Notes under the pieces: model-generated
Told to the model about the DNA's origin: nothing
What the model saw: only the letters and a program-made list of their open reading frames with translations
The model's database searches: none
Translations under genes and position numbers: made by a program
IMG/VR virus record: IMGVR_UViG_3300033388_005412
Coordinates: 32,001 to 96,000 of that record
From: a virus
Lineage: Duplodnaviria; Caudoviricetes
Length of the DNA stretch: 64,000 nucleotides
Direction: 5' to 3' (one strand)
Shown here: piece after piece, positions 42,346 through 64,000 of the stretch
Layout: every line of letters begins with the position of its first letter
Numbering within the stretch: the stretch's first letter is position 1

Positions 42346-42831
42346 CTATGTGTAAGGATATCCCCGCCAATCAGCTTTCAACGGCCCAAGCCTTAATCGC
42401 GGAAATACCCGATCTCTCCCTATACAATCTATAATTTCCAAATCAAATTCATCAACATCTTTAACCTTACTCATAAACTCATTAAAACCCTTTCTGGATT
42501 TCAATATGCCGTTCCACCAATGTTTTTTATAATAAAATCTCTCAAACATTTCACCAACAAGAACACACCCAAGTGTGTGTGTATCTACAATTCCAGTATG
42601 TATAATAATTCCTTTTCTTCCTGGGACATTCATAATTTCAAAATATCTTTTATATTTACCCCATGTCCGGCGTTTACAGTGATAGGTTTCGGACGGTATA
42701 CAAGATTTGTTTTGTTTATTTTGCCGCCAAGGGAGCTCCAATGTAAGCGCGAACGGGGTATCACCGTCTATAAAATTACCATATGTTGCTTCACTGTTTT
42801 CAGCGACCCGTTTAATTGTTAATTTCTTCAT
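42346..42831 (-). CDS. DUF5675-family protein (L,D-transpeptidase-like fold, putative endolysin)
   Basis: TLELPWRQN....SCIP..TY...NVPGR.GI.IH.G....T.GC.LVG. Confidence 0.8.
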   Translation of the reverse strand: MKKLTIKRVAENSEATYGNFIDGDTPFALTLELPWRQNKQNKSCIPSETYHCKRRTWGKYKRYFEIMNVPGRKGIIIHTGIVDTHTLGCVLVGEMFERFYYKKHWWNGILKSRKGFNEFMSKVKDVDEFDLEIIDCIGRDRVFPRLRLGPLKADWRGYPYT

Positions 42832-43205
42832 TTTTTACCCCCGAAGTATTCCTTCCCTAATTTCAATTTAATCATTTCTTTCACTATGCTTTTGCCACCC
42901 ATAAAAATATCGGCCAGCCACCGTCCATACTTACCTTTACCATAAACCTCAAGAGTGAATATTTTATCTTTTAATTTTCTACGCAGCCAGTTTCTGACTT
43001 TCAAGCCCATCTCCTTTTCTTTTTTGTCTTTTGTTCTAATCTCAGGCGTATCTATTCCAAAAAGACGAAGTTTAATTTTATTAAAACCAACATGAAACCC
43101 CAAATCTAAACTATTAATGGAAATGGAATCTCCGTCATATATTTGTTTTTTATCGACAATTTTACACCTCTCAAATCGCCAAAATTCTTTAGGTTTCTTT
43201 TTCAT
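42828..43205 (-). CDS. Thermonuclease (SNase) family protein
   Basis: YDGDSI...DLGF...RLFGIDTPE...GKYGRWLA; start moved to the ATG at 43205. Confidence 0.85.
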   Translation of the reverse strand: MKKKPKEFWRFERCKIVDKKQIYDGDSISINSLDLGFHVGFNKIKLRLFGIDTPEIRTKDKKEKEMGLKVRNWLRRKLKDKIFTLEVYGKGKYGRWLADIFMGGKSIVKEMIKLKLGKEYFGGKK

Positions 43206-43210
43206 AACAT

Positions 43211-43486
43211 CTACTCCACAATTTGCGTCCAATCCTCATAAACATGGTTAAAAATACCATATCCCAAAGAACCAACATCCCAGAATTTTATATTATCACC
43301 CCATTTCATAGGATTAATCTTTCTAATATTTTTATATAAACTTAATAATTTATATGTAGGAAACTGATTTGATAAAAGCCAGCCACCCAAAATCAATACA
43401 TCAGTATCAAACCCGTAAATTTTTATATCTATGTCTTCATGGGTCCGCGTTTCCAGCTCAGGATTATAAATATAGATTTTATTCAT
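43211..43486 (-). CDS. Hypothetical protein
   Basis: 91-aa ORF in the operon. Confidence 0.6.
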   Translation of the reverse strand: MNKIYIYNPELETRTHEDIDIKIYGFDTDVLILGGWLLSNQFPTYKLLSLYKNIRKINPMKWGDNIKFWDVGSLGYGIFNHVYEDWTQIVE

Positions 43487-49186: not shown

Positions 49187-50386
49187 TCAGTCATAACAAG
49201 CGCTAACCAATTTCGTGTTAGAAATCCACTTAGTTATTGCGCCAACATCCTGATTTGTGTTCAAAGAATACTCAAAATAATCAATTAATCCGGTATCAAG
49301 GTTATATTCACCCGTCCCGAACTTTTGAATATCAACATCATGAATATCTTCAGATGTTTCCATTATCCTTTGAATAATTTCATTAAAAACCAACTCGGTT
49401 CCCATTGAAAGATTATTTATATAATTAACAACATTTGTTACAACAGTTCTCGTCACATCATCTTTTGTACCTGTTGGTGTTGCCGCCTTAAACTCCAAAT
49501 TAATGCTCATGCTGCACGCCTTATACGTCGGGGCCGAAGCAACACCGCGCTCACCCGCGGCCTGAGTCTCATTTATAGCCGTCTGAACGGCACTTAGGAC
49601 GCCATTTGATATAACAGGGCTTTCTGATATGACAAACACGCCGAATGTCCCTATGCCATACTCATAATTACGTATCAAAACATCGCTAACGCCCGGGACT
49701 GATAAACATGCCAATCGTATAGCCGTCAGGTTGGCCTTCTCGGCGCCCTTCATTGCATTAATTATTCTATATCTGAAATTATTATCAGATTCAGTATCGG
49801 CGCCTGTGGTTATTGGCGTCGGATTTGACACTAAAATCAAATCTCTGATAACAACATAATTTAAATCTGAATTATTCCAGACAGTTAACACGCCGCTCGG
49901 CGCATTTGCCGCCGCCCCTAAATATACTGATAATGCGCTGACTGTAACACCATCATCTGTTAAAACAATGTCATCTGTTGTTTTATATTCATATGTTCCG
50001 TCAGTATCCTCGATTTTAGTTAACGCCGGTATCACAATATCCTCAAGAACAACGCCGGTATCGTCATAAATCATGGTTTTTAAATCACTAACAGTTTTAC
50101 CCGACGCTGGATCAATAGTAAATTTAACCTCACCCAGTGGATAATTTGATGATGACCTATCCAGCAAAAACAATTTACCTATCTGGTCCAGGAATTCGCC
50201 GGTTGCCGTTGTTATCATGGACTGAACAAAACGCGAATCCAGATACTCCGATAATGAAACCAGCTCTGAGCTTCCGATCTCAAGTAAAGACCTTGCGATA
50301 CTCCCTGGTGAAAAATTTTTTATTTCAGTGTCGGTTAATAATCTATCTCTGGCCGACACCATTAAATTATCAAAATTCAATCCCAT
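49187..50386 (-). CDS. Baseplate J-like (gp47/gp6 wedge) protein
   Basis: NFSPGSIARSLLE, ATGEFLDQIG, GADTESDNNFRYRI, SVPGVSDV. Confidence 0.9.
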   Translation of the reverse strand: MGLNFDNLMVSARDRLLTDTEIKNFSPGSIARSLLEIGSSELVSLSEYLDSRFVQSMITTATGEFLDQIGKLFLLDRSSSNYPLGEVKFTIDPASGKTVSDLKTMIYDDTGVVLEDIVIPALTKIEDTDGTYEYKTTDDIVLTDDGVTVSALSVYLGAAANAPSGVLTVWNNSDLNYVVIRDLILVSNPTPITTGADTESDNNFRYRIINAMKGAEKANLTAIRLACLSVPGVSDVLIRNYEYGIGTFGVFVISESPVISNGVLSAVQTAINETQAAGERGVASAPTYKACSMSINLEFKAATPTGTKDDVTRTVVTNVVNYINNLSMGTELVFNEIIQRIMETSEDIHDVDIQKFGTGEYNLDTGLIDYFEYSLNTNQDVGAITKWISNTKLVSACYD

Positions 50387-50411: not shown

Positions 50412-50855
50412 CTAACGCCTTCGCATGTAAACATTCAAGGGCTCTCTTGCGTTTACAACCTCTTCGTTATTTTGTGTTTCAGACACATAATTCAAACCAC
50501 CGTTCTGAAAATTAAATGTAAACTTAACTCCTGATGTTCCTATCAACGAGACTATTTCAATATTACAAATTATTGAAGAATCATCAACCGGTAAAACAAG
50601 AACTTTCGCAACAATATCATAATCCCTTAATTTCGTCTGAATCTCATTCCTCATTTTTTGCCGAGTTTGCGAGTCATTTAACATTCCGGTATATTTATTC
50701 AACCCGATACCTAAGTATGGGTGAAACACAAAAGAACCTTCATACACCATCAACATATTTTTAACAAAATCTGAATCATCTTCAGATAATATAAAGTCAC
50801 CGCTCTCAATCATTGTCGCACCAGCCAACGTTAATTTTATATCTGATTCATACAT
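50412..50855 (-). CDS. gp25/gpW-like baseplate wedge (sheath initiator) protein
   Basis: 147 aa; G...FHPYLGIGL...G motif; position directly upstream of baseplate J. Confidence 0.7.
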   Translation of the reverse strand: MYESDIKLTLAGATMIESGDFILSEDDSDFVKNMLMVYEGSFVFHPYLGIGLNKYTGMLNDSQTRQKMRNEIQTKLRDYDIVAKVLVLPVDDSSIICNIEIVSLIGTSGVKFTFNFQNGGLNYVSETQNNEEVVNAREPLNVYMRRR

Positions 50856-50919: not shown

Positions 50920-51606
50920 TCAAAATAAATCCTTTAATTTTTTAACAATATTTAAAGCTTCCGACGCCCTTACCACCATAGTAACATCGGGTAAATGATC
51001 AGGCATACAGAATGGTGGCACGAACGCTTTCGGCAGCATAGACATCATCCCGCTTTCTTTTAACACCACGTTGCTGCGAGTGGGGAAGTCATATTCAACT
51101 ATCTTTCCGAAAACTGATATCTGAGACGGGCTAATAGTTACCAAACTGCCTTCTTCTCCATCACCGGCCGAGCGTAACGCAATAGCATCATCAGAAATCA
51201 ACACCCTGCTTTTGGCACCCGGGAACGACCTGATAGATTTATAGTTAGTTTTAACATTTGAATTATCAATCAACTGAGCAGGCTTCGCCGGTTCTACTGT
51301 ATCAGAATCATTTCCACCATCTTTTTTCATCTTCGGTGTAAAATACGCGAAATGTTTACTGACATCTCTCATATTTGATGAAACATTATCTTCATAAAAT
51401 AAAGTACAGTCAAAATCTTTATCATTTATAGAATAATCCATAATGCCGTTCATATATTGAATTTTGATATCAATAGGAACTTTAGAGAACTCAAAATCAC
51501 CGGCGGTCTTCGGCATAAAATAAATCAACAGCGTGTGATCAGGCAAGCTCCCGGGTTTTTCTTTTGATTTAATTATAAAATTAGAAAGTGTGATCTGCTT
51601 TATCAT
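50920..51606 (-). CDS. Putative central spike (gpV/gp5-like) protein
   Basis: Lies between the hub-like and gp25-like genes; C-terminal short beta repeats (RVLISDDAIALRS...SLVTISPSQISVFG). Start moved to 51606 behind AGGAG. Confidence 0.35.
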   Translation of the reverse strand: MIKQITLSNFIIKSKEKPGSLPDHTLLIYFMPKTAGDFEFSKVPIDIKIQYMNGIMDYSINDKDFDCTLFYEDNVSSNMRDVSKHFAYFTPKMKKDGGNDSDTVEPAKPAQLIDNSNVKTNYKSIRSFPGAKSRVLISDDAIALRSAGDGEEGSLVTISPSQISVFGKIVEYDFPTRSNVVLKESGMMSMLPKAFVPPFCMPDHLPDVTMVVRASEALNIVKKLKDLF

Positions 51607-54600
51607 TTTCATCTCCTGTCGCGGCGCTAATTGTGTCCACAAAATCAAATATTGAATAAATTTTGTCCATAATATGAACTTTAAAACTATCCTTATACAT
51701 ACCTTCCAGGCCGGCGACATACGGCTGGCCCTTATATGTTAAACCGATGACATCTATACAATCTCTGCCCAGAAATTTTCCAATTGTCCAGCTCATAATG
51801 CTGTTTCCCAATAAAAAAGCCGGAATCACAACAGCCGCTGATATGCCTGTAACCCACGGTAACGCTGTCATTGCTGTGGTATACGCCCCGGATGCCGCTA
51901 TTGCCGAATATACGCCTGATGTTGCAGTGACCGCCACCCCAGCTGCTGTTGGTCCAACACCGGCAGCCAGTGCCCCCGATGCCGCTAATCCACCAGACAC
52001 AACTTCAGCCGCAACACCAGTTCCGACCACCCCAGTAACCGCAATCCCAGTTCCAGCCGCGGCCGTTCCCAACCCCATTGCCCCGACTGCTGCTTTCATA
52101 ATTCCTTTTCCCAATCCCATTGCGCTTCCAAAAAAAGGAACACCAAATCCATTCATAGCAGCAATTTCATATTTTATCACAGGATCCTGCGGATAAACAA
52201 TTGCATTCGGTGTAATAGTCGTTAAAAAACCTTTTTGATCAATTCTTTGAACAACCTGTTCAATTTCAATCGGACCATACATCCCATTATAAAGATCTCT
52301 GATAAAAATAATGTCCCAGACTTTCAACTGGGGCATCCCTAATAATGTTAATGACCCTCTATACATCGGCCGCATCATATTCGCCAGAACATTATATCCT
52401 ATTCTGTAAACAGTTGGAATTCGCCCACCCCAAACAGTTTGAACATTTCTTATAAAATCATTAAACCATTCAAACACCCCGAATGATGATGGGTCTATAT
52501 TATTCTGATATGAAATATAACTCTTCAGGTTACTGGTTTTAATATTATCATCAGCGAAAAATTCATGTGTTCGCCATGCACCGGTATTCGGGTTATCTTT
52601 TGGTTCCTCTGGATATCTTATTTTAACATGATTTGAAATTTCTTCAGAACTAGCTCTGATACTATTATCAACTATGTGTCTCAAACTATCAACATAATAA
52701 TAATTACGAATAGGCATATAGCCCCTTTCAATATTACCTTCTGAGTCTTTCAAATCATCAGGATTTTTAATACTCAGTGCGATGCCAGTTGCTTTACTAG
52801 TTTTATCCTCTTTTGTTTGACGAATTAAATTTTTATTTTCTATTGCATCCAATTGAAATTTGAATTTTAATATTTCTGATTTCGTGTATCCAACATTTTT
52901 ATCCTGTCTGATTTTAATCTTATCAACTGAAAATTTTTTAGTAAATAAATCGCCGGCAACGTCGCTCTTAAAAACATACTCCTGAATATCTGTGATAAAT
53001 TCCATCACTTTCTTTCTATCATTGGCTTTCATAACAATACTTAAACTATGTTCGGGATTTTTTTCAATATATTTATCCAATAATTTAAATATCTCATCAT
53101 ATGTTTGAGTTCTAACAATAGAACTAACAACATCCGCAACACCCCGGGTAATGAAACTTTTAATTCCGGCTTTTACCACACTGATAACACTGGATGACGG
53201 CCGGAATCCCTCTCTGTTTTTTTCACTATATTTACTACTAGGTTCTTTAAAAAAATCAGTCAATCGTTTCAAAAGTTCAGCACGATCCTTTCCTTTCTTA
53301 ACTATTTTTTCCATTTTTTCCCGCGTATCATACGCATCCGTATATTTATAATAACCGTTTCTAGGACCTAAATAAATTGTCTGTCTTGTTAAACCGGGAA
53401 CATTACTATTATATGGCAACACAGCCGCAATGTAATCTTCGTGATACAATGTTATCTCATTCAAAATTTCCCACAACGACTGATTACTTATTCTCCAGTC
53501 AAATGTATTATCTTTATATCGATTTCCTATATCTTTCGATGTCCAACCAAATAAAAATGTTAACCACCCCCCGAAAATATGATCCGTAAATGGTAAATAG
53601 ATATTTTCCAATCTAGGATCATAAGTTCCGAATTTATAATATATATCAACAATCGGATTTATTTTACTTCTGAAAAGATCAAAAAAACGATCTTTCGGAC
53701 TCGTGTAATATGATGTTGGTTCAATTTCAAGCCCGAATCTGGCCAGCATATTCGGACTGCCCATATGGCTTAAGCCTGTTATTGATTTCATAGCATAAAT
53801 AACAACATCACCATGTGTCTGCCCGGCACTGCAAAAACCAACATGATAATTGCCACCATCAAAACACTTCTCGTGTAATTCGGCCCCGAAACTCTGAGCA
53901 ACTATTGAAACTCTGTCACCTTGCTGAACCGACACGACCTTTCCAATAAAAAGTGTATCTAAATTCATTGGATTATTGTCGTATCCGGCCTTTATCATTA
54001 TCGTTGTGCCCTCACGTAATAGAAAACGTAAAACGGTCTGCTCCTGCAGCGTCTGTTCTTTCCTTATATTCTCACCCTGATTTGAATTTTTATCACTTAA
54101 ATTTCCAGTTATGTTACTGACACTTATTGTAGCAACATCCCCAGGTGTGTTTTTATTTGATATAACTTCAATACTTTCTATCGCGTTATATGTGTAATAA
54201 TCATCAATCATACCCCATTCTTTGTTGTCTTCTTCGATAAAATACAATTTTACAGTTGGATATGCACGACTCATATGAAGCGTTTTATCTTTTGCTCTAA
54301 ATCCGTTCGTATAACTAATACATTTATTTAAAAGATCTTCCTCCTCTGTTACCCCAAACTCAGATAACACATTCCATGACTGTAAAAAACTATTATCCAG
54401 CTGATTAATTGTGCTGATTTCATCTATCATGCGGTCTATTTGCCTTTTCTTTGAGTCAAGTGACTCAGCGCCTTCATCGGTTCCCAAGTCAGTTGTTATT
54501 TCACCTTCAAATTCTTGAATTAGTTTATAATATGCCCCGATTTTCAAACAATAATTTATCGATGCTACGTTTTTCAATAAATACTGCGATGTGTTGCACT

Positions 54601-57600
54601 CACCATACCTTCCCTTAACTTCATCGTCTGAAGAATTTAAAAAATTAACATATTTCTTCATCTCATTTTCATCATAATCTTTATTTATTTCAACAATTTT
54701 ATCCATAACTTCTTTTCTGGATTTGCCGCCTTTGCCCCATTTTTTACGCCAGTCTCCGCACAAAAGAGATTTTGATAATTTATCATTGTGTTTTTCAAGC
54801 ATAGATAATCCGGGGGCAAATTGCAATAACTCATCACGTTTATGCAAAAGCGCTATTTTAGTTTTAATGGTATCTCTCAATATTTGATAACTTGTATCAT
54901 TTTGAAATTCTTCTCTAATATAAAAAAAATCGGCCGGAGTTGATAGAAAACCGCTTTTGTGTTCAGGTAATTCCAAATCCTGATAATTACCATAATTGCC
55001 TTTCATATATAAAGGCAACTTAGGGATAAACTGTTCTTTTTTAAAACCGAATTTTGCTATTAATTCATCCTTAGCATATAAAATACATTTTATGGCCTGC
55101 TGCCTTAATAACAAATTAATAATACCGACGGCATATTTTTCAGGATCATGCCCTTTCGGCACCCCAATTGTTGGACTCCATACTGTTCCAGCTGCGAAAC
55201 CAATGCCGGCTCCTGCTAAACCACCAATAAATGTTCCCCACCCTGGAACAATTGATCCAACTCCAGCACCAAATACCATTCCACCTATAGCAAGCGGCAA
55301 ACCCGTATAAAATTTTAATTTTAATGCGAATCGTTCTTTTCTTTCTTTTTTCCAATTGTTATATAAGAATAAATATTTAATAGCATCAAAAATTTCAATT
55401 ATTTTTAATCCACCTTTATATCTTTTTAAAAATTCTCCACGGAAAAAACCCTTTTCATAATTAAACGGTAACCTAACATCGCCGCCTAAAATTAATGCTG
55501 ATACAACTTTTTCATATAATGGAAAATACTTTTTTAATTCAAAAGCATCACTGAAATTTAAATCATAATTATTTATTTGTTCAGTCGCCCAGTCCATTGT
55601 CATGTGACCATATGGCACATCAATTTCGGAACCATATCCAACAAAAAAGAATAATCTCAAAATCATAGCTCGCATATTCTGCATAGCTCTACCGTATATG
55701 TAACTGTCTTTCTCATTATCTTCCGGTAATCTATATTCAGTTATAAGTTTTTTCTTAACATCTTCGATTAAATTATCATCAAAGAAATTCGACGGCACAA
55801 GTCTTTCATATTCCGTCATGTCAATATCAGACTGAACCAGTCGTAACGTCAGATTCCACCACCCTGGTTTGCCTTTAATTGTCTCACATACAAAATCCTT
55901 AAATAATACACGAGTTATGCCCAATACTTTAAAAAGCCCGTTATAATTCAAATCAGGCGGAACTTCTAAACTATTTGTCCTCGCGATAAGTTTTGAAATA
56001 CCAATTCTTTCTCTCAATGACCGGGAAACGCATGCTTTTTTAGATAAAGATTTCAGCACTCTCATCAAAGTTTCATTACATGTCTGCAAATTAACCTGAA
56101 CAACCCAGTCACCACGGCCCATGTACTGTTTTGTCGGCATTGTGTAGTTCAGCACCGGAATTTCGGCCATCCTTGTTTCCAATGACGCCGACATACCGGC
56201 TATAATAGTATCTTCATCCTCGGTGAATTCAAATTTATATCTATTGGTAAAACCATATTTAAGCTTTTTCTGTCGTGCAATCTGTTTATCCATTAAAACC
56301 ATAATTTTTTTTCCGGATGGTATCTTTTCAAATTCATTAACAAATTCCAAAAGTGTATACGGGCCATGATCTTTTTTTAAATCAGTCCCTGGTATATCTA
56401 TAGGAATTGAAATAGTTTTCTCGCCCTTATACGCCTCCGCGAATTTTTTAACACCCCACCCGTAATATGTTGAACCACTTCCATAGTAAAATAAACCAAT
56501 AGTTCGCCAAAATTCAGTCCATGCCCGCACAATAACATTTGTAACTTTAGTTGTCGTGCCGGGCCATTCCAGACTATTAACTAATTCAACAATTTTAAAT
56601 TGTATATCAGCATTTAATTTCAAAATATCATTTTGTAATGATTCGCGCTCCTCATCGCCGAACTCCGTTATATCATATCTGCATTTAAACCGTTTAAAAT
56701 CATTTGTCCCGACCTGACGCAGCCAATTATCCGGCGCAAGAAAATTAAAACCACTTTTAATCGTGGTATTTTCATTCTGTTTAGATAAAGAAGGAACATA
56801 ATTCATTTTGATATCAACATCATCGTCAATTACTGGAAGTCCGGTTAATAAAGGTTTAACATAATTTTCAAATGGTTTGCAATTTGATATATTTTTTGTA
56901 CGATTTATGTTCTGATTGCTGGCATACTGCATATCGTTCGCCGTTTCCGGATACTGTAAATTAGTTATCTGTGAATAATATTCAATCTGTTTCAACGCAT
57001 CTTCATTTGACACGCAAAACTCAAATCCCGATGAATACGGCGAATAATTAAAAACATCCAGCACCAAATTACATTGAAGTGACTCAGGAAACCCCGGAAC
57101 TGTCGACACAACTATTGATTGTAAAGCACATGCAAGCTGAACATCTTCATATATTCCAAGCTCTTTATATTCATCTATCATATCAGCAGCCACACCCGCT
57201 TTACTTATATTTGTTCTTTCCTTTTCTTTTTTGCTTTTGGCCTTTTTTAATAATTTTATATCATTTTCTAATTTTTGAATCTCGGTATTATATTCTTTAA
57301 ATTTCTCAGGATCTGCGGCAAACACATCAAGATTTGCTTTTTTTATCTTTAGTTCTTCTTCCTTCTCCGTTATTTCTTTTTGCTTTTCTTTTATATCAGC
57401 ATCAAAGTAATCAATAACCCCGGCATACGTGTCCATTACAACTTTCTGAAAATTTTCATCAGTTTTTTTAAAATATCCTGCGCCCTGATTCTTATCAACT
57501 TCCCTCTCATAAGACGGTGATCTGTATCTTCCGGGTGATTCCTCCAATTTTTTAGGTTTACTCCACGTTACATCAGGTATTAATAAACTTCTAATGTGCT

Positions 57601-58447
57601 GATTTTCAATCGGGAGAAACGGCGATCTTAAAAACTCAGCCAGTAATTTGCGAAAACTATTATCATAATCCTTCTCCACTTTGCCGTTAATATCCTGCAG
57701 CGATGGAAAAAATATAGTCAATTCTATACGATTATTCTGCTGGCCCGTCTTAATTTTCGGCGTGCCGGCCGTCCTAACCGTATTAATCGGCATGTTAACA
57801 TTCTGTTCCGTTATTGTTATCTGATCAGGTGGAACCGGGAGAATAACAGTTCCTATTTTACAGGCACCGGGAACTTGCAATTCCTCTTCAGCGCCTTTCA
57901 TTGCCTCTATTATTTTACCTGTTCTGGCAATTTGGGCTTTATAACTTTCTTTCTTTTCAGCGAAATCAGCCCGCCTGTTTTTATCAGCTAATTGTGTGAG
58001 ATATTCTTTATTACTAATTTGATCTGTTGACCTGACACTGTCAAACCCATTTCCTGATTTGATAAGTTCAGCATTCATGTTTTTACCATCAACATAAACA
58101 ACACCTAATTGACGATCATACATATCTTCAGAAATTATTGTTTGATCCTGACTTGGATCTTGCTGTAAAAACTCTATTTCTTTTCCAGCTAAATTATCTT
58201 TTGCCCATTGTGTTGCTTTTTCACCTTCTGGTGTGTCTTTTTCATATGCATCAACACCGATGGGCCGAACTACTACTGGATCAGCACCATCAAATGACAC
58301 CCAGTATGTATCACCATCAATAACACCTGTAGGACAGGGACGATCCGGATCTATACTAGGTACTATTTTACCTGTTTTTAAAGGAAAACATTTACTGATA
58401 TTTTTCTTATTTATCGCAGGATCGTATTTTAAATATTCTTCACTCAT
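51581..58447 (-). CDS. Giant baseplate-hub-like protein with an N-terminal staphylococcal nuclease domain and membrane-type segments
   Basis: VIDGDT...VRPIGVDAYE...DMYDRQL...NAELIKSG (SNase); LPVPPDQI tube-initiator-like motif; hub-like IESIEV...ATISVSN...I.AGY...F.GKV..V...V.I.AQSFG; glycine zipper and long Ala/Gly hydrophobic C-terminus. Confidence 0.75.
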   Translation of the reverse strand: MSEEYLKYDPAINKKNISKCFPLKTGKIVPSIDPDRPCPTGVIDGDTYWVSFDGADPVVVRPIGVDAYEKDTPEGEKATQWAKDNLAGKEIEFLQQDPSQDQTIISEDMYDRQLGVVYVDGKNMNAELIKSGNGFDSVRSTDQISNKEYLTQLADKNRRADFAEKKESYKAQIARTGKIIEAMKGAEEELQVPGACKIGTVILPVPPDQITITEQNVNMPINTVRTAGTPKIKTGQQNNRIELTIFFPSLQDINGKVEKDYDNSFRKLLAEFLRSPFLPIENQHIRSLLIPDVTWSKPKKLEESPGRYRSPSYEREVDKNQGAGYFKKTDENFQKVVMDTYAGVIDYFDADIKEKQKEITEKEEELKIKKANLDVFAADPEKFKEYNTEIQKLENDIKLLKKAKSKKEKERTNISKAGVAADMIDEYKELGIYEDVQLACALQSIVVSTVPGFPESLQCNLVLDVFNYSPYSSGFEFCVSNEDALKQIEYYSQITNLQYPETANDMQYASNQNINRTKNISNCKPFENYVKPLLTGLPVIDDDVDIKMNYVPSLSKQNENTTIKSGFNFLAPDNWLRQVGTNDFKRFKCRYDITEFGDEERESLQNDILKLNADIQFKIVELVNSLEWPGTTTKVTNVIVRAWTEFWRTIGLFYYGSGSTYYGWGVKKFAEAYKGEKTISIPIDIPGTDLKKDHGPYTLLEFVNEFEKIPSGKKIMVLMDKQIARQKKLKYGFTNRYKFEFTEDEDTIIAGMSASLETRMAEIPVLNYTMPTKQYMGRGDWVVQVNLQTCNETLMRVLKSLSKKACVSRSLRERIGISKLIARTNSLEVPPDLNYNGLFKVLGITRVLFKDFVCETIKGKPGWWNLTLRLVQSDIDMTEYERLVPSNFFDDNLIEDVKKKLITEYRLPEDNEKDSYIYGRAMQNMRAMILRLFFFVGYGSEIDVPYGHMTMDWATEQINNYDLNFSDAFELKKYFPLYEKVVSALILGGDVRLPFNYEKGFFRGEFLKRYKGGLKIIEIFDAIKYLFLYNNWKKERKERFALKLKFYTGLPLAIGGMVFGAGVGSIVPGWGTFIGGLAGAGIGFAAGTVWSPTIGVPKGHDPEKYAVGIINLLLRQQAIKCILYAKDELIAKFGFKKEQFIPKLPLYMKGNYGNYQDLELPEHKSGFLSTPADFFYIREEFQNDTSYQILRDTIKTKIALLHKRDELLQFAPGLSMLEKHNDKLSKSLLCGDWRKKWGKGGKSRKEVMDKIVEINKDYDENEMKKYVNFLNSSDDEVKGRYGECNTSQYLLKNVASINYCLKIGAYYKLIQEFEGEITTDLGTDEGAESLDSKKRQIDRMIDEISTINQLDNSFLQSWNVLSEFGVTEEEDLLNKCISYTNGFRAKDKTLHMSRAYPTVKLYFIEEDNKEWGMIDDYYTYNAIESIEVISNKNTPGDVATISVSNITGNLSDKNSNQGENIRKEQTLQEQTVLRFLLREGTTIMIKAGYDNNPMNLDTLFIGKVVSVQQGDRVSIVAQSFGAELHEKCFDGGNYHVGFCSAGQTHGDVVIYAMKSITGLSHMGSPNMLARFGLEIEPTSYYTSPKDRFFDLFRSKINPIVDIYYKFGTYDPRLENIYLPFTDHIFGGWLTFLFGWTSKDIGNRYKDNTFDWRISNQSLWEILNEITLYHEDYIAAVLPYNSNVPGLTRQTIYLGPRNGYYKYTDAYDTREKMEKIVKKGKDRAELLKRLTDFFKEPSSKYSEKNREGFRPSSSVISVVKAGIKSFITRGVADVVSSIVRTQTYDEIFKLLDKYIEKNPEHSLSIVMKANDRKKVMEFITDIQEYVFKSDVAGDLFTKKFSVDKIKIRQDKNVGYTKSEILKFKFQLDAIENKNLIRQTKEDKTSKATGIALSIKNPDDLKDSEGNIERGYMPIRNYYYVDSLRHIVDNSIRASSEEISNHVKIRYPEEPKDNPNTGAWRTHEFFADDNIKTSNLKSYISYQNNIDPSSFGVFEWFNDFIRNVQTVWGGRIPTVYRIGYNVLANMMRPMYRGSLTLLGMPQLKVWDIIFIRDLYNGMYGPIEIEQVVQRIDQKGFLTTITPNAIVYPQDPVIKYEIAAMNGFGVPFFGSAMGLGKGIMKAAVGAMGLGTAAAGTGIAVTGVVGTGVAAEVVSGGLAASGALAAGVGPTAAGVAVTATSGVYSAIAASGAYTTAMTALPWVTGISAAVVIPAFLLGNSIMSWTIGKFLGRDCIDVIGLTYKGQPYVAGLEGMYKDSFKVHIMDKIYSIFDFVDTISAATGDENDKADHTF

Positions 58448-58632
58448 TTCTGTAGTAATTTCCTCTGGCGATGATCCATTTCTTTCTGATTATTTTTATT
58501 AGTTTTACGGCGATCCATAACAGATACAGTGCATCTATCCCCAGTCGCCGATTCAACTAACTGAGCAATCATGTTAGCTAAATTATTCGCGTCTTTGTCA
58601 GACTGTATTCTCACCTCAACATTATATGCCAT
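58444..58632 (-). CDS. Small hypothetical protein
   Basis: 62 aa; AGAGG RBS; ATGA overlap with the hub gene. Confidence 0.6.
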   Translation of the reverse strand: MAYNVEVRIQSDKDANNLANMIAQLVESATGDRCTVSVMDRRKTNKNNQKEMDHRQRKLLQK

Positions 58633-58670: not shown

Positions 58671-61600
58671 TCATTTTCCGTATTTTTGCAATTTCTCCCG
58701 GACACTCACACTGTCGATATTATATGACGTAGTCGAGAAATTATTTCGTGTATACGCTTTCTGCCTGATTTCATTTTTAAAAACAGGCATCCTCGGTAAA
58801 CTTAAATATTTCTTTTTCTGTATATTTTCAAAACTTTTATTATTAAATAATTCTATATAAGCCTTAGGCAAATCACTTGGATTTCCTAAAGGAGTCTGCA
58901 TTAATTGAGCCCAATCCAATTCCGGTTTTGTAAAAGCATAATCCCACTTCTCACCGCCGTTGCCGGGCATGTGTCCCAATGACCCCATCTGATTAGGCCT
59001 GAACAAATTCAACGCAGCATATCCTAAAGCAACCATGCCGCCGATTCTACTTAAATTACCGGCATTTTTCCATGCGGTTTGCCCAAGTTTATTAACAAAA
59101 TCCTTTTTCATACATTGCAACATTGTTATATCCGAACCCTGTGTTTGAAAATTCAAACCATCCAATAAAAAAGGTTTAACGTGTTCACTGGCAGCTGTTG
59201 CTCCGGGATTTGTAATATTATGTATAATGGCCTTACCAATAGTTGAATTGCCCGATATAAAACTTTGTGTTACCCTATTACCACGACTCCAATAATCAGG
59301 TTGATCCATTTCCGCCGCAACCATCCATTCCCGAGTCCTTACTTTAGCATTTGGACCTAAATGTTTCCGCACAAATGCGGCCGACGACTTACCCGGCAAT
59401 TCAGCATTCCAAAATTCCCCAACTTTAACATCCAATTTCGCCGTATCGTCCATAAACCTCACATTCTTCGGCTCACTAAGATTATACAACGCATTTGAAA
59501 CCTCATCTGAAAGTGTCATAGTTTTACCTTTAACTTTCAAACCCCATTCTATCATCGGAGTTATTTTCCCCAAAAAATCATGTGCTTCGGTTGGTCTCCA
59601 CTTCTGGTCACCCATCAAAGCAATCGCTCTATTAACCAACGGTGTTATTTTAGGCGGCCACGATTTTGGAAATGTTGCCATTTTTTCCATAACCTTTTCC
59701 CATTCACCAGGACTTGATTTCATAAACGCAAATTCATTTCTGATATTTTTCTTTATAATTTCCTTTGCAATTTTCAATGGCTTTAACACACTTGCATGTA
59801 ATTTAGGATCATATGTCGCATATTTTGTGACATCGCCACGTGTAACTGGCTCCAATGCCATCGTAGATGCTTTACTATAAACACCCCTTCTAGTAAAAGC
59901 AGCCTGTGAAAACTCTTTCATACCCTTTGGAGTAATCGCCAAAAAAGCCTCATCACCATCGGAATCACCCCCTAATAATTTTCCGATAACGGATGATATA
60001 CGCATCATATCACCCTTTATAGTACTTCTTGCCCACGCCATGACAGGCGGCATTGACTCACCGCCCGTTGTTGGAAATCTTATTGCAACACCAGGCGCCG
60101 GTATCAATTCCTTTGAAAAGGCATCAGACCATAACTTCCTTATTTGTCCGCCTTTAATACTATTCAAATTGGTTTCCTGAGTTGCTTTAAATAAACCATC
60201 AACGGTCATATCCTTTTCACCTAATTTACCAACTACTTTATTAGCAACCTGCTTCCAATATGGGTGAGCCGCACCAACATGATTTTTATTTCCAGAAATC
60301 CACCCGCCATAATTTTTTAAATATTTCATAACAGAATCCATCTCAGACGATCCCATACTGGTTATCTGCTGCTTAATCATCTTAGCATTATTGTTAACCC
60401 AGTCTTTTGAAACCTGCACTTCAAAGTCCAAAACAGATTTCTTAGTATAATTTCCCAATATACCTTCCGCCCCTGTTATATATGGATCAGCAAACTGAAG
60501 TGTTCCAGTCGCGCCTGGTGCGGAAAATTTCATTCCAGGTGTTATTTTATATTCGCTCATAATATCAAGCATTTTTTGTAAAAAACCACCCGCACCAGGA
60601 GATCCGCTAAGTACCTTTTTCAATAAATTTGCCTGAGTTATCATTAATTGTGATGTTATACTGTGTTTTCCGTCAGTGGCATCAATCCATGGCTGCTCGT
60701 ATAACTGAACAACACTGTTCGACATGCCAAATCTTGTTCCTGGAACTTTAGCAAATGTCGCTTTCGGCGTTTTCACATATCCCAAACCAATTTTCTGAAA
60801 TAAATCGGCGATATCTCTCGGGACTGTTCTGCCCCTAATAATTTGTTCTGATATCAACTTACCCTTTGCTTTCAAATATGTTGGTAATTTCGAATATTCC
60901 GGACTATTTACATCATAAAGCGTTCCCTCAATCTCATGAAATGTTTGATCGGCTATTTTAGCCATTGAGCCCCATTCAGACGGATCACTATGCAAAAACT
61001 TTTTGGCCATTTTTTTAAACTCGTTACCCTCAACTCCTTTTAAAATACTATTAAATTTTTGTATTATATCAACACCGCCCGGTTCCACAACTCCCTGTGA
61101 TATCGCAAACTGCCTACGAAGCTGTCCCATTTTATAACTATTTTGCTCCTGTGCCATATTCAACAATCCTTCAAATAATTTAGAACTGCCAGGCTGATGC
61201 TTTAAAACATTTAAAAAAGAAATATTTAAAGGCACTGTTCCTCCGCCGCGGCCCATAAGCGATTCCAATTGACTAAACCCAAACTGCATATTTGACACTA
61301 GCACACCAGGTGTGAAATCGCCCGGCTGTTGTTTATTAACTAAAGGTCTAACAATTTCAAGAAAGGAAACATATTTCTTTGAAAAAATCTTATCGACAAC
61401 TGCTGAGTCATATGACTTGATTTCGCCAACCATTTTACGGGCTTCTTCGGCCCAGCCTGAAAACTCATCAGGTGACATTTCCCACGCTTTCTGATAAAAT
61501 TGCGAATACATGCTACCGGGTATTGATATTCGTCGTATCAATTCAGAAACAACCGCCCCTTTTTCAGCAGCATCCCATGTTCTATTCATAACAGCAGTCA

Positions 61601-64000
61601 CACCGGCCGCTGACGCTGTTATATTTGAAAAACTAGGAACATCCTGTGTCATCTTCAAACTTTTCATAACTTTAACAATACTATTTAATGCTTTATCATA
61701 ATTTCCGGCAAAAATACTTTCTTTAAACGCATTTGCTTTTATCACTAATTCACCAGTTTGGCGATGAGTTACAACATTCAATTTATCACTTATTCCGGTG
61801 CTCTTAACGGCTCTTACTACCGCAGCCTTTTTATTGGCATCCTTTCCAGCCCATGCTGAAATTCGCCCAAGCATAATAGTTAACATGCCGGCAGGATCAA
61901 CTGTTTTAAGAGTATCATGTCCAACCATCATATCAACACCGTCTGTCATGTCAGCTGTTTCTCTAATTATTCCTTTAGTTAATCCCTTCACCAAAACTTT
62001 CATACCGGCTTTTGCTTTATGTAAATAATCGAATTCTATACGTGTTTTACCTTGATATGATTTAACACTTGTAATTACGGCTTCAGTATTTCCTTTATAA
62101 TGCTGTGCAATGCCATTTAGTACACCAAAAGAATCATTGGGTTTAATAAACTGCCCAGGAGCAAGCTTTTCAATTTTCGTATCAACAATAGCATGTCCCC
62201 CATGACGAACAACCCCGAAACGATTCAAAAATTTTTTATCCATCCAAACCTGCTGCTCATGTGTTTCTTTACTATGCGTAATTAAAACATTCGCCCTATG
62301 CATATAATTTCTAAGTCCACCGTCAAGCATTTCATCTTCAAATAAACCAGGCATAAATGATCTACCTGTCTTATCAACTTTTAAACCTTTCCAATCAATA
62401 TTTCTACCACGGCCAACATCTATGGAAGTTGTGCTACCAAAAAACTGATACAGTGCCCTATGCAACGGCATACCATGAAATTCCGGATACACTTCATCAT
62501 ATGGTAATAATGTTTGTATTCCTCTAATTGATTTATTCGGTGATACAAGTCCTGAGACAAATGGTTTAAATTTAGGAGACATTTTCTCCATGGCATCCAT
62601 ATAATTCGGGCGATTTTTACGAATATTCCAATCTTTTTCGGACCATAAATAATTATCCAAAAAAGCATATAAATTATCTAGTACAGATTCATGCGCCACG
62701 TTTGAGTCATATAATTTTTGCCAACTCATTCCTTTATATAACCTACCAACCAATTTATCAACAAAATTTCTAACACCGCGGGGACCCTGTGGCAGATCTT
62801 CCAAGTATTTTATTCTATTATTAACCAGCGTTCTCAAATGTTCACCTGATAATGATCTATGCGCACCAGGATTTAATTTCATAGACTTTTGCTGATCAAG
62901 TGAACCTTGCAAAAACCTTATCACATCGCCAACTCCGCGACTTTTAGATTTATTTAATAATGTATTGAACGCATCAATATCACCTTGAATATTTTTACCA
63001 ATAACCTGTCCCTTTAAATATTGCGGCAACATTTTTATCAATTCATCACTTGTCACAGGAACAACTTTGTACTTTGCGGAACCCTTCAACGTAGCTAATC
63101 TTTCTCTATTTGCCGTTAACCCACTTATTTTAGCCACAAACTCACGTTTACCCTTTTGTACATCTGTTAGTTCAAATCTTATTGCCTCTTTGATCTCAGC
63201 GCCGTTTTTTGTCTTAATAACATTTAAAATTCCTATATCTTTTATACTATCTACTTTCACACCGTCAACAACAATTTTATCACGACTCATATCAATGTAT
63301 GTCAACACAGAATCCCTTTCTAAAAATTTAGCATGAATTTTCTGTAATTCCGGTAAAGCTGTTTTTTCAAGACCACTCATAAATCCCATAGATTTTAAAG
63401 TTTCTTTATACGGCGCAACATTTAATGATCGTGTCCAATCAACAATATCAACACCAGATACCGGCTCGGCGCCTTTTGTTATATTTCTCATACCCTTGTC
63501 GACCATGCCCTGAACATCTTTTTCAGCGCCTTGTATTAACAAACTCTTATTTTCAGTCGCCATTAAATTCAAAAAATATTTATGTATATTTGCAGACAAC
63601 TTTTGATACTGTTCGTTTGGGTAATTAATATCACCTATTTTAGCCTGTGATGTGATTTTTATAGGAGAAATCGGATCAAATCGCGTGGCCCATTTATTCG
63701 GCATATTCAAAGGTAATTTTATATGCCTGGATTGACCATTTGCTTTATTAAGAGCAACATCAAAAACAAATTTAGAACCGCCTCTGCCGAAATCTTCTAT
63801 GTTAACTGTGATATCATCAAGATTTGCGCCTATGTCGCTCGCTGTTTTTCTTATTAACTGGTAATATTTCATTAAATTATCATATCCCGGGCGAATATAC
63901 CCCGCACCTTTTAACATCTTTCCTGTTTTGGTGTATTTTCCACCAAAAACATCTAAAAGATTAGCGTCTTTAAATACTCTGTCTATTCTTTTTAATTGTT
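58671..64000 (-). CDS. Giant tape-measure-position virion protein containing a single-chain two-barrel RNA polymerase (N-terminus outside the window)
   Basis: Frame is open to base 63998 (QLKRIDRVFKDANLLDVFGGKYTKTGK-MLKG). Beta-like barrel: HEQQVWM, GQFIKPND...AVITSV, GMKVLVKGLTKGII, GVDMMV. Beta-prime-like barrel: EVQVS, AIRFPT, GGDSDGD. C-terminal hydrophobic IGGMVALGYAALNLF. Confidence 0.85.
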   Translation of the reverse strand, partial: QLKRIDRVFKDANLLDVFGGKYTKTGKMLKGAGYIRPGYDNLMKYYQLIRKTASDIGANLDDITVNIEDFGRGGSKFVFDVALNKANGQSRHIKLPLNMPNKWATRFDPISPIKITSQAKIGDINYPNEQYQKLSANIHKYFLNLMATENKSLLIQGAEKDVQGMVDKGMRNITKGAEPVSGVDIVDWTRSLNVAPYKETLKSMGFMSGLEKTALPELQKIHAKFLERDSVLTYIDMSRDKIVVDGVKVDSIKDIGILNVIKTKNGAEIKEAIRFELTDVQKGKREFVAKISGLTANRERLATLKGSAKYKVVPVTSDELIKMLPQYLKGQVIGKNIQGDIDAFNTLLNKSKSRGVGDVIRFLQGSLDQQKSMKLNPGAHRSLSGEHLRTLVNNRIKYLEDLPQGPRGVRNFVDKLVGRLYKGMSWQKLYDSNVAHESVLDNLYAFLDNYLWSEKDWNIRKNRPNYMDAMEKMSPKFKPFVSGLVSPNKSIRGIQTLLPYDEVYPEFHGMPLHRALYQFFGSTTSIDVGRGRNIDWKGLKVDKTGRSFMPGLFEDEMLDGGLRNYMHRANVLITHSKETHEQQVWMDKKFLNRFGVVRHGGHAIVDTKIEKLAPGQFIKPNDSFGVLNGIAQHYKGNTEAVITSVKSYQGKTRIEFDYLHKAKAGMKVLVKGLTKGIIRETADMTDGVDMMVGHDTLKTVDPAGMLTIMLGRISAWAGKDANKKAAVVRAVKSTGISDKLNVVTHRQTGELVIKANAFKESIFAGNYDKALNSIVKVMKSLKMTQDVPSFSNITASAAGVTAVMNRTWDAAEKGAVVSELIRRISIPGSMYSQFYQKAWEMSPDEFSGWAEEARKMVGEIKSYDSAVVDKIFSKKYVSFLEIVRPLVNKQQPGDFTPGVLVSNMQFGFSQLESLMGRGGGTVPLNISFLNVLKHQPGSSKLFEGLLNMAQEQNSYKMGQLRRQFAISQGVVEPGGVDIIQKFNSILKGVEGNEFKKMAKKFLHSDPSEWGSMAKIADQTFHEIEGTLYDVNSPEYSKLPTYLKAKGKLISEQIIRGRTVPRDIADLFQKIGLGYVKTPKATFAKVPGTRFGMSNSVVQLYEQPWIDATDGKHSITSQLMITQANLLKKVLSGSPGAGGFLQKMLDIMSEYKITPGMKFSAPGATGTLQFADPYITGAEGILGNYTKKSVLDFEVQVSKDWVNNNAKMIKQQITSMGSSEMDSVMKYLKNYGGWISGNKNHVGAAHPYWKQVANKVVGKLGEKDMTVDGLFKATQETNLNSIKGGQIRKLWSDAFSKELIPAPGVAIRFPTTGGESMPPVMAWARSTIKGDMMRISSVIGKLLGGDSDGDEAFLAITPKGMKEFSQAAFTRRGVYSKASTMALEPVTRGDVTKYATYDPKLHASVLKPLKIAKEIIKKNIRNEFAFMKSSPGEWEKVMEKMATFPKSWPPKITPLVNRAIALMGDQKWRPTEAHDFLGKITPMIEWGLKVKGKTMTLSDEVSNALYNLSEPKNVRFMDDTAKLDVKVGEFWNAELPGKSSAAFVRKHLGPNAKVRTREWMVAAEMDQPDYWSRGNRVTQSFISGNSTIGKAIIHNITNPGATAASEHVKPFLLDGLNFQTQGSDITMLQCMKKDFVNKLGQTAWKNAGNLSRIGGMVALGYAALNLFRPNQMGSLGHMPGNGGEKWDYAFTKPELDWAQLMQTPLGNPSDLPKAYIELFNNKSFENIQKKKYLSLPRMPVFKNEIRQKAYTRNNFSTTSYNIDSVSVREKLQKYGK

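What the first reader, a model, noticed from the sequence alone, without database searches (positions are those of the whole stretch)
51581..58447. Catalytically intact staphylococcal nuclease fused to a 2288-aa hub-like protein with membrane-inserting segments
SEEN: the N-terminal SNase domain keeps equivalents of all active-site residues: DGD (58310-58318, D19/D21), R in VRPIG (R35), D and E in VDAYE (D40/E43), and D and R in DMYDR (D83/R87). It is followed by a tube-initiator-like segment, an acidic/basic coiled coil, a glycine zipper (GGMVFGAGVGSIVPGWGTFIGGLAGAGIGFAAG, about 55190-55300), a gp27/gp44-like hub region (about 53850-54250) and a roughly 130-aa Ala/Gly hydrophobic tail (about 51760-52170). 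INFERENCE: the layout recalls evolved VgrG-effector fusions, i.e. a tail tip that inserts into the membrane and may deliver a nuclease.
Basis: partly seen in the sequence, partly recalled or inferred. Interest (0 to 1): 0.75.

Follow-up and report, generated by a model that had tools for sequence, protein, structure and literature searches.

The report
Giant phage baseplate hub carrying nuclease
This 2288-residue gene is the oversized central hub of a jumbo phage's contractile-tail baseplate, with an apparently intact staphylococcal-type nuclease at its front end; such nuclease-bearing hubs were first noted in 2007, and the nuclease's role is still untested.

Summary
Residues 16-160 are a complete SNase fold. 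It scores above the Pfam threshold, and the Ca2+ ligands and catalytic Arg/Glu residues are kept. Residues 194-880 form two tail-tube-like domains in tandem, like the trimeric, pseudo-hexameric baseplate-tail connector of HFTV1.

The gene lies upstream of gp25-like and Baseplate_J genes in a complete 203-kb phage genome. Its family is large: 2125 representative clusters, mostly proteins of 1800-2600 aa.

In relatives, the N-terminal position and an internal slot carry SLT, M15 or M23 cell-wall hydrolases, or SNase, sometimes together on one chain. I therefore read the nuclease as an accessory envelope-acting enzyme, probably cutting extracellular or surface nucleic acid. Injection into the host is a weaker rival.

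The protein is not VgrG-like in detail. It has no spike, and the enzyme is N-terminal. Membrane insertion of the Gly/Ala-rich segments is not shown.

Hardies et al. (2007) already described this "hyperplastic gp27 homologue" with an SNase head. This scan has also met it in at least five other genomes. Verdict: a new member of a known kind.

The parts
51581..58447 (-). Whole ORF, 2288 aa plus stop: giant baseplate hub protein (P0001)
   Evidence: Homologues of 1800-2600 aa.
57968..58402 (-). SNase (thermonuclease) domain, aa 16-160
   Evidence: Pfam PF00565 29.1/34.9 bits against cut-off 21. PDB phmmer alignment with the catalytic residues. VIA 1sta_A Z 12.2, rmsd 2.6, 117/137 aligned over model 20-159.
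57878..57973 (-). Helical linker, aa 159-190
   Evidence: AF2 helix 159-188
55808..57868 (-). Tandem tail-tube-like domains (tube-initiator / baseplate-tail-connector-like), aa 194-880, with helical insertions
   Evidence: VIA wide: HFTV1 9fkb_BA Z 15.7, 254/284 aligned; P74-26 tube Z 11.0; T5 pb6 Z 9.6. Foldseek top hit is Mu baseplate chain 9ki1_u. BFVD hits include DNA-circulation N-terminal, Dit-like and CIS tube proteins. Conserved cores 185-320, 441-600 and 720-920.
57161..57460 (-). Charged coiled-coil hairpin inserted in the first tube-like domain, aa 330-429; variable in the family
   Evidence: AF2 helices 331-378 and 380-412, pLDDT about 90. Gap fraction 0.74 in homologues.
54986..55732 (-). 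Variable internal slot, aa 906-1154. It is helical here. In relatives it holds M23 or SNase domains.
55178..55306 (-). Glycine-zipper hydrophobic segment, aa 1048-1090
   Evidence: Kyte-Doolittle 19-residue peak 1.72, 6 GxxxG motifs, 1 charged residue in 48. pLDDT below 50.
54848..54985 (-). Conserved block, aa 1155-1200 (family motif around Y1155/D1157/F1174)
52172..54277 (-). Complete gp27 / Mu gp44 / P2 gpD-type hub fold, aa 1391-2092
   Evidence: Foldseek against PDB: phi812 hub 1.5e-10; Mu gp44, MuSo2, pyocin R2 and T4 gp27. VIA: HFTV1 hub Z 19.4, Milano hub 19.4, Mu gp44 17.2 (296/325 aligned), T4 gp27 14.2. tblastn to 0305phi8-36 ORF147.
52778..53323 (-). Helical, low-confidence insertion inside the hub fold, aa 1709-1890; variable in the family
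51860..52150 (-). Gly/Ala-rich, nearly uncharged stretch, aa 2100-2196
   Evidence: 48% Gly+Ala, 3 charged residues. pLDDT below 50.
51770..51880 (-). Hydrophobic TM-like helix, aa 2190-2226
   Evidence: Kyte-Doolittle 19-residue peak 1.95. AF2 helix at model 818-847.
51584..51769 (-). Conserved C-terminal domain, aa 2227-2288
   Evidence: Conserved in all homologues
58444..58632 (-). 62-aa ORF whose stop overlaps the hub start (ATGA), suggesting translational coupling
   Evidence: A 49-aa ORF sits in the same position in L015.
50920..51606 (-). Downstream 228-aa gene. The likely start is MKMIKQ after an AGGAG, overlapping the hub's end. It is a candidate spike but is unassigned.
   Evidence: Conserved 219-228-aa gene in L014/L015. 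The only hint is a weak Atlas lead to DUF2345 at 0.90.
50412..50855 (-). gp25/gpW-like baseplate protein, 147 aa
   Evidence: PHROG 975, E 5e-5
49187..50386 (-). Baseplate_J (gp6/gpJ-like) wedge protein, 399 aa
   Evidence: PHROG 6, E 2e-40. Pfam PF04865, 73 bits.

Best explanation
P0001 is the inner-baseplate protein of a complete 203-kb uncultured contractile-tailed phage of the 0305phi8-36-like lineage. One chain combines what simpler phages encode separately: two tube-like domains in tandem (aa 194-880) and a full gp27/gp44 hub (aa 1391-2092).

Inferred: three copies form a pseudo-hexameric tube-initiator ring stacked on a trimeric hub. This matches the six-fold tube to the three-fold tip.

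Accessory modules hang on this scaffold: an N-terminal Ca2+-type SNase (aa 16-160), a variable internal slot, and Gly/Ala-rich hydrophobic segments.

Inferred mechanism: on sheath contraction the hub is driven into the cell envelope. The SNase travels with it and works outside the cytoplasm, where Ca2+ is available. There it cuts extracellular, matrix or cell-surface nucleic acid, as a companion to or substitute for the peptidoglycan hydrolases that relatives carry in the same positions. The hydrophobic segments may then contact the membrane.

Shown here: the folds, the catalytic residues, the gene context and the domain swapping. Not shown: catalytic activity, presence in virions, location on the particle, and substrate.
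For: Identity as a hub:
- Foldseek and VIA match solved hubs (Z 17-19, about 300/325 residues).
- There is sequence homology to the 0305phi8-36 ORF147 hub and to PHROG 20474.
- The gene lies just upstream of gp25-like and Baseplate_J genes, and this order is conserved in relatives.

Tube-like tandem region:
- Z 15.7 to HFTV1 gp41, with 254/284 residues aligned. Duplicated tube proteins P74-26 and T5 pb6 also match.
- HFTV1 gp41 is described as a pseudo-hexameric trimer (10.1101/2024.12.09.627619).

SNase domain:
- It passes the Pfam cut-off, has the complete fold, and keeps all Ca2+ and catalytic residues.
- Across 25 hub-borne SNase domains at about 25% identity, D19, D21 and R35 are kept in 25/25 and E43 in 23/25.

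The SNase sits in an envelope-enzyme slot:
- Among 101 N-terminal extensions, Pfam finds SLT 8, SNase 8, M15 5 and M23 2. In the internal slot it finds M23 3 and SNase 2.
- SNase occurs on the same chain as M15 (P0041, P0042) and M23 (P0004).

Established knowledge: SNase needs millimolar Ca2+ and is typically extracellular, and a non-specific nuclease in the cytoplasm would also threaten the phage's own DNA.

Hardies et al. 2007 (PMC2147016) reached the same positional inference.
Against: - No activity, virion or localisation data exist for any member.
- The AF2 model of the SNase domain is only moderately confident: pLDDT 64-83 across most of residues 21-130, and below 50 in 101-110 and 136-163.
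- The strand carrying SNase Y113/Y115 is shortened and poorly aligned here.
- In the four families tested and SLT, this phage's tail genes show no recognisable peptidoglycan hydrolase. M23, Amidase_2, Amidase_3 and NlpC/P60 are absent from the whole genome, and the one SLT hit lies outside the window. It is therefore unclear how the wall is crossed, and the SNase may do something other than assist a lysin.
- Mu's tube initiator gp43 enters the cell with the DNA (PMC11915804). A cytoplasmic destination for a tube-initiator-fused domain therefore cannot be excluded.
- The host is unknown.
Confidence: 0.5

Rival explanations
1. Injected effector. The hydrophobic Gly/Ala segments insert into the cytoplasmic membrane. 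The N-terminal SNase is carried into the cell with the DNA, whole or after cleavage, to degrade host DNA or RNA or defence nucleic acids. It might act together with the giant protein encoded just upstream.
For: Hydrophobic TM-like segments occur here and in 82 of 124 full-length relatives. [quoted passage not shown] The upstream neighbour was read by an earlier follow-up as a virion RNA polymerase (e1-5369153; not tested here). T6SS and eCIS systems deliver nuclease effectors (established knowledge).
Against: The SNase is covalently joined to a roughly 250-kDa structural chain, and no cleavage site is known. The conserved Ca2+ ligands imply a need for Ca2+ levels not found in cytoplasm. A non-specific nuclease would also cut incoming phage DNA. 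The same slot holds wall hydrolases in relatives. The genome also encodes a separate small, intact SNase (42828-43232) that could serve intracellular needs.
Confidence: 0.2
2. The SNase domain is not a working nuclease. It is an OB-fold used structurally, or to hold a nucleic acid, for example the leading end of the phage genome at the tail tip.
For: SNase is an OB-fold, and hub and spike proteins often use OB-folds (established knowledge). Ca2+ ligand D40 is Asn in 8 of 25 hub-borne copies, and R87 is replaced in some. The C-terminal third of the domain is divergent and modelled at low confidence here.
Against: In this protein every catalytic and Ca2+ residue is kept. D19, D21 and R35 are invariant and E43 nearly so across copies of about 25% identity. 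This pattern is expected under selection for catalysis, with the caveat that the copies were collected with an HMM that rewards these motifs.
Confidence: 0.12
3. The domain hydrolyses a phosphodiester polymer of the envelope other than nucleic acid, such as teichoic acid.
For: It shares its slot with wall-degrading enzymes. Cultured relatives include phages of Gram-positive hosts (Bacillus, Moorella).
Against: I know of no SNase-family enzyme with this activity. Relatives with SNase also infect Gram-negative Acinetobacter (e1-1991736).
Confidence: 0.05
4. The protein is a tape-measure or ejection protein rather than a hub. This was suggested by its size and glycine zippers.
For: It is very long, with Gly-zipper hydrophobic segments as in some tape measures.
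Against: Two confident globular folds, tube-like and hub, account for the conserved cores. It is not an extended helix.
Confidence: 0.03

Closest known systems
Bacillus phage 0305phi8-36 gp147 and its BtI1 prophage homologue RBTH_07687 ('hyperplastic homologue of the T4 gp27 hub', Hardies, Thomas & Serwer 2007, PMC2147016)
   Same: A giant hub in which the gp27-like part is only a fraction of the chain. It has exchangeable enzymatic end domains. The BtI1 homologue has an N-terminal staphylococcal-nuclease domain, as here. There is direct sequence homology (tblastn 29.8% identity over aa 1392-1524, E 7e-11; BFVD hit A7KUS1_1, probably the same phage, over about 976 columns).
   Different: gp147 itself carries a transglycosylase, NlpC/P60 and M23 domains rather than SNase. 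The 2007 paper recognised only hub domains 1 and 3 and left the N-terminal half unassigned. Here all four hub domains align structurally, and the N-terminal half resolves as tandem tube-like domains.
Acinetobacter phage vB_AbaM_ME3 baseplate hub; Moorella phage MTATph1 CDS0032 (2225 aa, annotated 'endolysin'); Bacillus phages Edson and vB_BceM_WH1 giant virion proteins
   Same: All are cultured-phage members of the same giant-hub family (loci L007, L008). MTATph1 matches across the SNase and first tube-like core (aa 44-288).
   Different: Identity is only 25-30% over parts of the chain. Their accessory domains differ. None has been studied functionally, as far as the papers I searched show.
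Haloferax tailed virus 1 gp41 (baseplate-tail connector) plus gp44 (baseplate hub)
   Same: These are the best structural matches for both halves: 9fkb_BA Z 15.7 for aa 194-877 and 9h4p_BD Z 19.4 for the hub. gp41 is a trimer of tandem tube-like domains stacked on the trimeric hub.
   Different: HFTV1 has two separate small proteins in a non-contractile archaeal virus. There is no sequence similarity beyond fold level (9-17% identity) and no nuclease.
Phage Mu gp43 (tube initiator / DNA circularisation protein N) plus gp44 (hub)
   Same: The gene-order position and folds match: a tube-like domain plus helical domain, followed by the hub.
   Different: Mu gp43 is a hexamer of single tube domains with a LysM module. 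The Mu proteins are separate, small, and carry no enzyme.
T4 gp27-gp5 cell-puncturing device and evolved VgrG spikes of type VI secretion
   Same: A gp27-type hub (T4 gp27 Z 14.2, VgrG1 Z 15.3) that carries an enzyme to the target envelope.
   Different: Here there is no gp5 OB-fold or beta-helix in the chain. The enzyme is N-terminal, next to the tube-like ring, rather than on or beyond the spike. It is a nuclease rather than a lysozyme.

Membership tests
SNase / thermonuclease (Pfam PF00565) | Scores above the family's curated HMM threshold | tested here: met
   29.1 bits on the whole protein and 34.9 bits on aa 1-189, against a cut-off of 21
SNase / thermonuclease (Pfam PF00565) | OB-fold barrel with flanking helices | tested here: met
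   AF2 model compared with 1sta_A: Z 12.2, rmsd 2.6, 117/137 aligned. Foldseek TM by target is about 0.7.
SNase / thermonuclease (Pfam PF00565) | Ca2+ ligands D21 and D40, and catalytic R35, E43 and R87 | tested here: met
   D46, D66, R61, E69 and R112 in the phmmer alignment. They are conserved in hub-borne homologues.
SNase / thermonuclease (Pfam PF00565) | Ca2+-dependent hydrolysis of DNA and RNA | not testable with these tools
   Needs an enzyme assay
gp27 / Mu gp44 / P2 gpD baseplate hub | Four-domain hub fold | tested here: met
   VIA: Mu gp44 1wru Z 17.2 (296/325 aligned), Milano hub Z 19.4 (304/326), T4 gp27 Z 14.2 (327/364), over aa 1391-2092
gp27 / Mu gp44 / P2 gpD baseplate hub | Match to the Pfam sequence model Phage_GPD | tested here: not met
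   No such hit at E <= 1 in P0001 or at E <= 0.01 in twelve relatives scanned full-length. Membership is at the level of fold and distant homology only.
gp27 / Mu gp44 / P2 gpD baseplate hub | Gene position before the gpV/gpW/gpJ-type baseplate genes | tested here: met
   Followed by a 228-aa gene, a gp25-like gene and Baseplate_J. The same order occurs in L014 and L015.
gp27 / Mu gp44 / P2 gpD baseplate hub | Trimer at the tail tip of the virion | not testable with these tools
   The chain is too long for the complex tool. Needs proteomics or cryo-EM.
0305phi8-36 gp147-type giant ('hyperplastic') hub | Sequence homology to the gp147 hub core | tested here: met
   tblastn E 7e-11. PHROG 20474 E 8.4e-55. 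The profile finds 2125 representative clusters.
0305phi8-36 gp147-type giant ('hyperplastic') hub | Conserved scaffold with exchangeable enzymatic domains | tested here: met
   N-terminal SLT, SNase, M15 or M23, and slot M23 or SNase, across members
Evolved VgrG (hub + spike + C-terminal effector) | gp5-like OB-fold and beta-helical spike in the same chain | tested here: not met
   Residues 2093-2288 are modelled as low-confidence Gly/Ala-rich sequence, helices and three short strands. VgrG matches cover only their gp27-like part, chain residues about 5-354.
Evolved VgrG (hub + spike + C-terminal effector) | Effector domain appended C-terminal to the spike | tested here: not met
   The only enzymatic domain is N-terminal
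Tandem tube-domain connector / tube initiator (HFTV1 gp41, T5 pb6-type duplication, Mu gp43) | Two tail-tube-like domains in one chain | tested here: met
   9fkb_BA Z 15.7, 254/284 aligned over aa 194-877. 8ed0_A Z 11.0. 5ngj_A Z 9.6.
Tandem tube-domain connector / tube initiator (HFTV1 gp41, T5 pb6-type duplication, Mu gp43) | Assembles as a trimeric pseudo-hexameric ring under the tube | not testable with these tools
   Three copies exceed the size limit of the complex tool
Tandem tube-domain connector / tube initiator (HFTV1 gp41, T5 pb6-type duplication, Mu gp43) | LysM module, as in Mu gp43 | tested here: inconclusive
   No Pfam LysM hit. Aa 890-1380 is only partly modelled and at low confidence.

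The most novel reading that the evidence does not exclude
The giant hub is a delivery device. After contraction its Gly/Ala-rich segments insert into the cytoplasmic membrane, and the N-terminal SNase enters the host with the genome as an early host-takeover or anti-defence nuclease. It would act alongside the giant protein encoded immediately upstream.
Probability: 0.15. Interest if true: 0.65.

Novelty: new member of a known kind. Interest (0 to 1): 0.3.

Why it matters
Tail-tip enzymes of phages are almost always cell-wall hydrolases or polysaccharide depolymerases. A nuclease that recurs in the same positions of a very large, mostly uncultured family of jumbo-phage hubs points to a step of infection nobody has tested, such as clearing extracellular DNA or attacking host nucleic acid.

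The domain map gives concrete constructs for testing. It also shows that one chain can supply both the six-fold tube-initiator ring and the three-fold hub.

The basic observation is 19 years old and has turned up repeatedly in this scan. This window therefore adds a well-resolved example rather than a new kind of system.

Tried and rejected
- Profile searches of both halves against PDB sequences found nothing meaningful (best E 0.21 and 0.9).
- Pfam gives no hub, tube or LysM family for P0001 or its relatives.
- The genome-contig scan returned only two short contigs, binned as Candidate Phyla Radiation MAGs. They give no reliable host.
- The viral-contig scan gave only 6 loci.
- Sequencing runs: none was listed, and no RNA holder was listed.
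- A recent intragenomic copy of the stand-alone SNase gene as the source of the hub's domain is rejected. The two share only 23% identity over 83 residues.
- The tape-measure reading is rejected on fold grounds.
- The downstream 228-aa gene could not be assigned. Pfam and PHROGs find nothing. The Atlas's own model is poor (pLDDT 0.37), and the only hint is a 0.90 feature match to a DUF2345 cluster, which is a lead only.
I therefore could not measure whether the SNase lies on the lumen side or the outside of the tube-like ring.
- The complex predictor was not used because three copies of either scaffold domain exceed its size limit.
- P0002, a 100% identical 2165-aa record starting at residue 124, is another gene call on a 6.8-kb contig and not evidence for a later start. 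The ATGA overlap and the N-terminus conserved with P0003 support the ATG at 58447.


Full report
**The observation.** The minus-strand ORF 51581-58447 encodes 2288 residues. Its ATG overlaps the stop of a 62-aa upstream ORF as ATGA. Its first 40 residues are conserved in the nearest homologue P0003 (65% identity). The annotated start therefore stands. The genome is a complete, terminally repeated virus record of 203,294 bp.

**The nuclease.**
- Pfam SNase scores 29.1 bits on the whole protein and 34.9 bits on residues 1-189, against a cut-off of 21.
- The alignment to S. aureus nuclease pairs D19/D21/R35/D40/E43/D83/Y85/R87 with D44/D46/R61/D66/E69/D108/Y110/R112.
- The AF2 model of residues 1-1200 (mean pLDDT 73) superposes on nuclease 1sta_A at Z 12.2, rmsd 2.6, with 117 of 137 residues aligned.
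- The last third of the domain is divergent and of low confidence.
- Among 25 SNase-like domains found on related hubs, at about 25% identity, D19, D21 and R35 are invariant. E43 is kept in 23. D40 is Asp in 15 and Asn in 8. The HMM used to collect these domains favours the same motifs, so this is supportive rather than decisive.

**The scaffold.** Family alignment shows conserved cores at 185-320, 441-600, 720-920, 1120-1200, 1361-1720, 1881-2100 and 2201-2280. Variable inserts separate them.
- With a 96-sequence alignment, residues 1380-2288 fold with pTM 0.72, and 301 residues have pLDDT above 90.
- Foldseek and VIA-align place residues 1391-2092 firmly among solved hubs: HFTV1 hub Z 19.4, phage Milano hub Z 19.4, Mu gp44 Z 17.2 (296 of 325 residues), pyocin R2 hub Z 17.2, T4 gp27 Z 14.2 and VgrG1 Z 15.3.
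It is interrupted by a helical insert at about 1709-1890.
- Residues 194-877 match HFTV1 chain 9fkb_BA at Z 15.7, with 254 of 284 residues aligned. They also match the duplicated tube proteins of P74-26 (Z 11.0) and T5 (Z 9.6).
- By its length, and because it is present in the emptied tail that lacks the hub, I take 9fkb_BA to be gp41.
- Foldseek's top PDB hit is a 419-residue chain of the Mu baseplate, which I take to be the tube initiator gp43. BFVD hits include 'DNA circulation, N-terminal', Dit-like and CIS tube proteins.
- HFTV1 gp41 is a trimer whose two homologous domains give a pseudo-hexameric ring between tube and hub. Mu gp43 is the hexameric tube initiator above gp44.
- My reading, which is inference, is that three copies of P0001 supply both rings.

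**Context.** Downstream lie a 228-aa gene overlapping the hub's end, a gp25-like gene and a Baseplate_J gene. Relatives keep the order: giant gene, giant gene, (small gene), hub, about 220-aa gene, about 115-147-aa gene, Baseplate_J.

**The family.**
- A profile of the C-terminal half finds 2125 representative clusters at E <= 0.001 and 1409 at E <= 1e-30. Most are proteins of 1800-2600 aa.
- Of the 158 proteins held, 132 also carry the tube-like half.
- Cultured members include Bacillus phages 0305phi8-36, Edson and WH1, Moorella phage MTATph1 and Acinetobacter phage ME3.

**Accessory domains.**
- In 101 N-terminal extensions Pfam finds SLT in 8, SNase in 8, Peptidase_M15_3 in 5 and M23 in 2. 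The rest are unassigned.
- In the internal slot between the tube-like half and the block at 1155-1200, Pfam finds M23 in 3 and SNase in 2 of 90 members. My own HMM finds 16 SNase-like copies that are not N-terminal, most of them at residues about 780-1060, where the slot lies in full-length members.
- SNase shares a chain with M15 in P0041 and P0042, and with M23 in P0004.
- The nuclease is thus one item in a repertoire otherwise made of wall hydrolases, and it occupies the same two positions.

**Hydrophobic segments.**
- The glycine zipper (1048-1090) and the Gly/Ala tail plus helix (2100-2226) are real, but both model at pLDDT below 50.
- In relatives such segments occur in the slot (40 of 90), near the C-terminus (44 of 89), or inside the hub insert. 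Of 124 full-length members, 82 have at least one.
- This recurrence suggests a function. Membrane insertion is only a hypothesis.

**Mechanism.** I favour action outside the cytoplasm, with confidence of about one in two, for four reasons:
- the SNase shares its slot with envelope enzymes;
- it keeps the Ca2+ site of an enzyme family that needs millimolar Ca2+;
- it would endanger the phage's own DNA inside the cell;
- it is covalently part of a structural ring.

Two points keep the injection reading alive, at about 0.2. Mu gp43 enters the host with the DNA. I also found no peptidoglycan hydrolase of the families tested in this phage's tail genes.

**Comparison with what is known.** Hardies, Thomas and Serwer (2007) called 0305phi8-36 gp147 a 'hyperplastic homologue of the T4 gp27 hub' with exchangeable wall-degrading domains. 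[quoted passage not shown] I found that paper before consulting the scan's notes. Those notes show the same kind of protein in at least five other genomes, including phage ME3.

This window adds two things:
- the structural assignment of the N-terminal half as tandem tube-like domains fused to the hub, which I did not find in the papers I read;
- counts of domain usage across the family.

**Verdict.** This is a new member of a known kind, of modest interest.

Noticed in passing
window 42828-43232 (-): A second, stand-alone SNase gene (about 125-134 aa, Pfam 43 bits) with DGD, R, D-x-x-E and Y-G-R all present. It is only 23% identical to the hub's domain, so it is not a recent copy of it.
   Followed up: partly
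window 58444-58632 (-): A 62-aa ORF fills the gap between the upstream giant gene and the hub and ends in an ATGA overlap with the hub's start. A 49-aa ORF sits in the same place in relative L015.
   Followed up: partly
L015:9182-9865 and L014:7140-7826: Relatives have a 227-228-aa gene (Amidase_2 in L015) between the upstream giant gene and the hub. This window has none. The whole genome shows no Amidase_2, Amidase_3, M23 or NlpC/P60 match. Its only SLT match is in a 219-aa ORF at genome 27003-27239, outside the window.
   Followed up: partly
window 58671-64000 (-): The upstream giant ORF (more than 1748 aa in the window) has no Pfam or PHROG hit. An earlier follow-up read it as a virion RNA polymerase. 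I did not test that.
   Followed up: no
window 51747-52196 (+): A 149-aa Pro/Ala-rich ORF lies antisense to the hub's Gly/Ala-rich tail. It is probably a mirror artefact of the biased codons, not a gene.
   Followed up: no
window 40305-41000 (-) and 42346-42831 (-): A calcineurin-like metallophosphoesterase (Pfam 60.6 bits) and a DUF5675 protein (79 bits) lie next to the stand-alone SNase, downstream of the baseplate genes.
   Followed up: no
L012 and L013: The only family members found in the species-genome collection lie on short contigs binned as Candidatus Saccharibacteria and Candidatus Howlettbacteria MAGs. This could reflect mis-binned phage DNA or a hint about hosts.
   Followed up: no
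P0131, P0136, P0142, P0128, P0145 (628-877 aa): Some representatives cover the whole hub profile in under 900 residues. The hub half may therefore also exist as a separate gene in some phages, or these may be partial gene calls.
   Followed up: no
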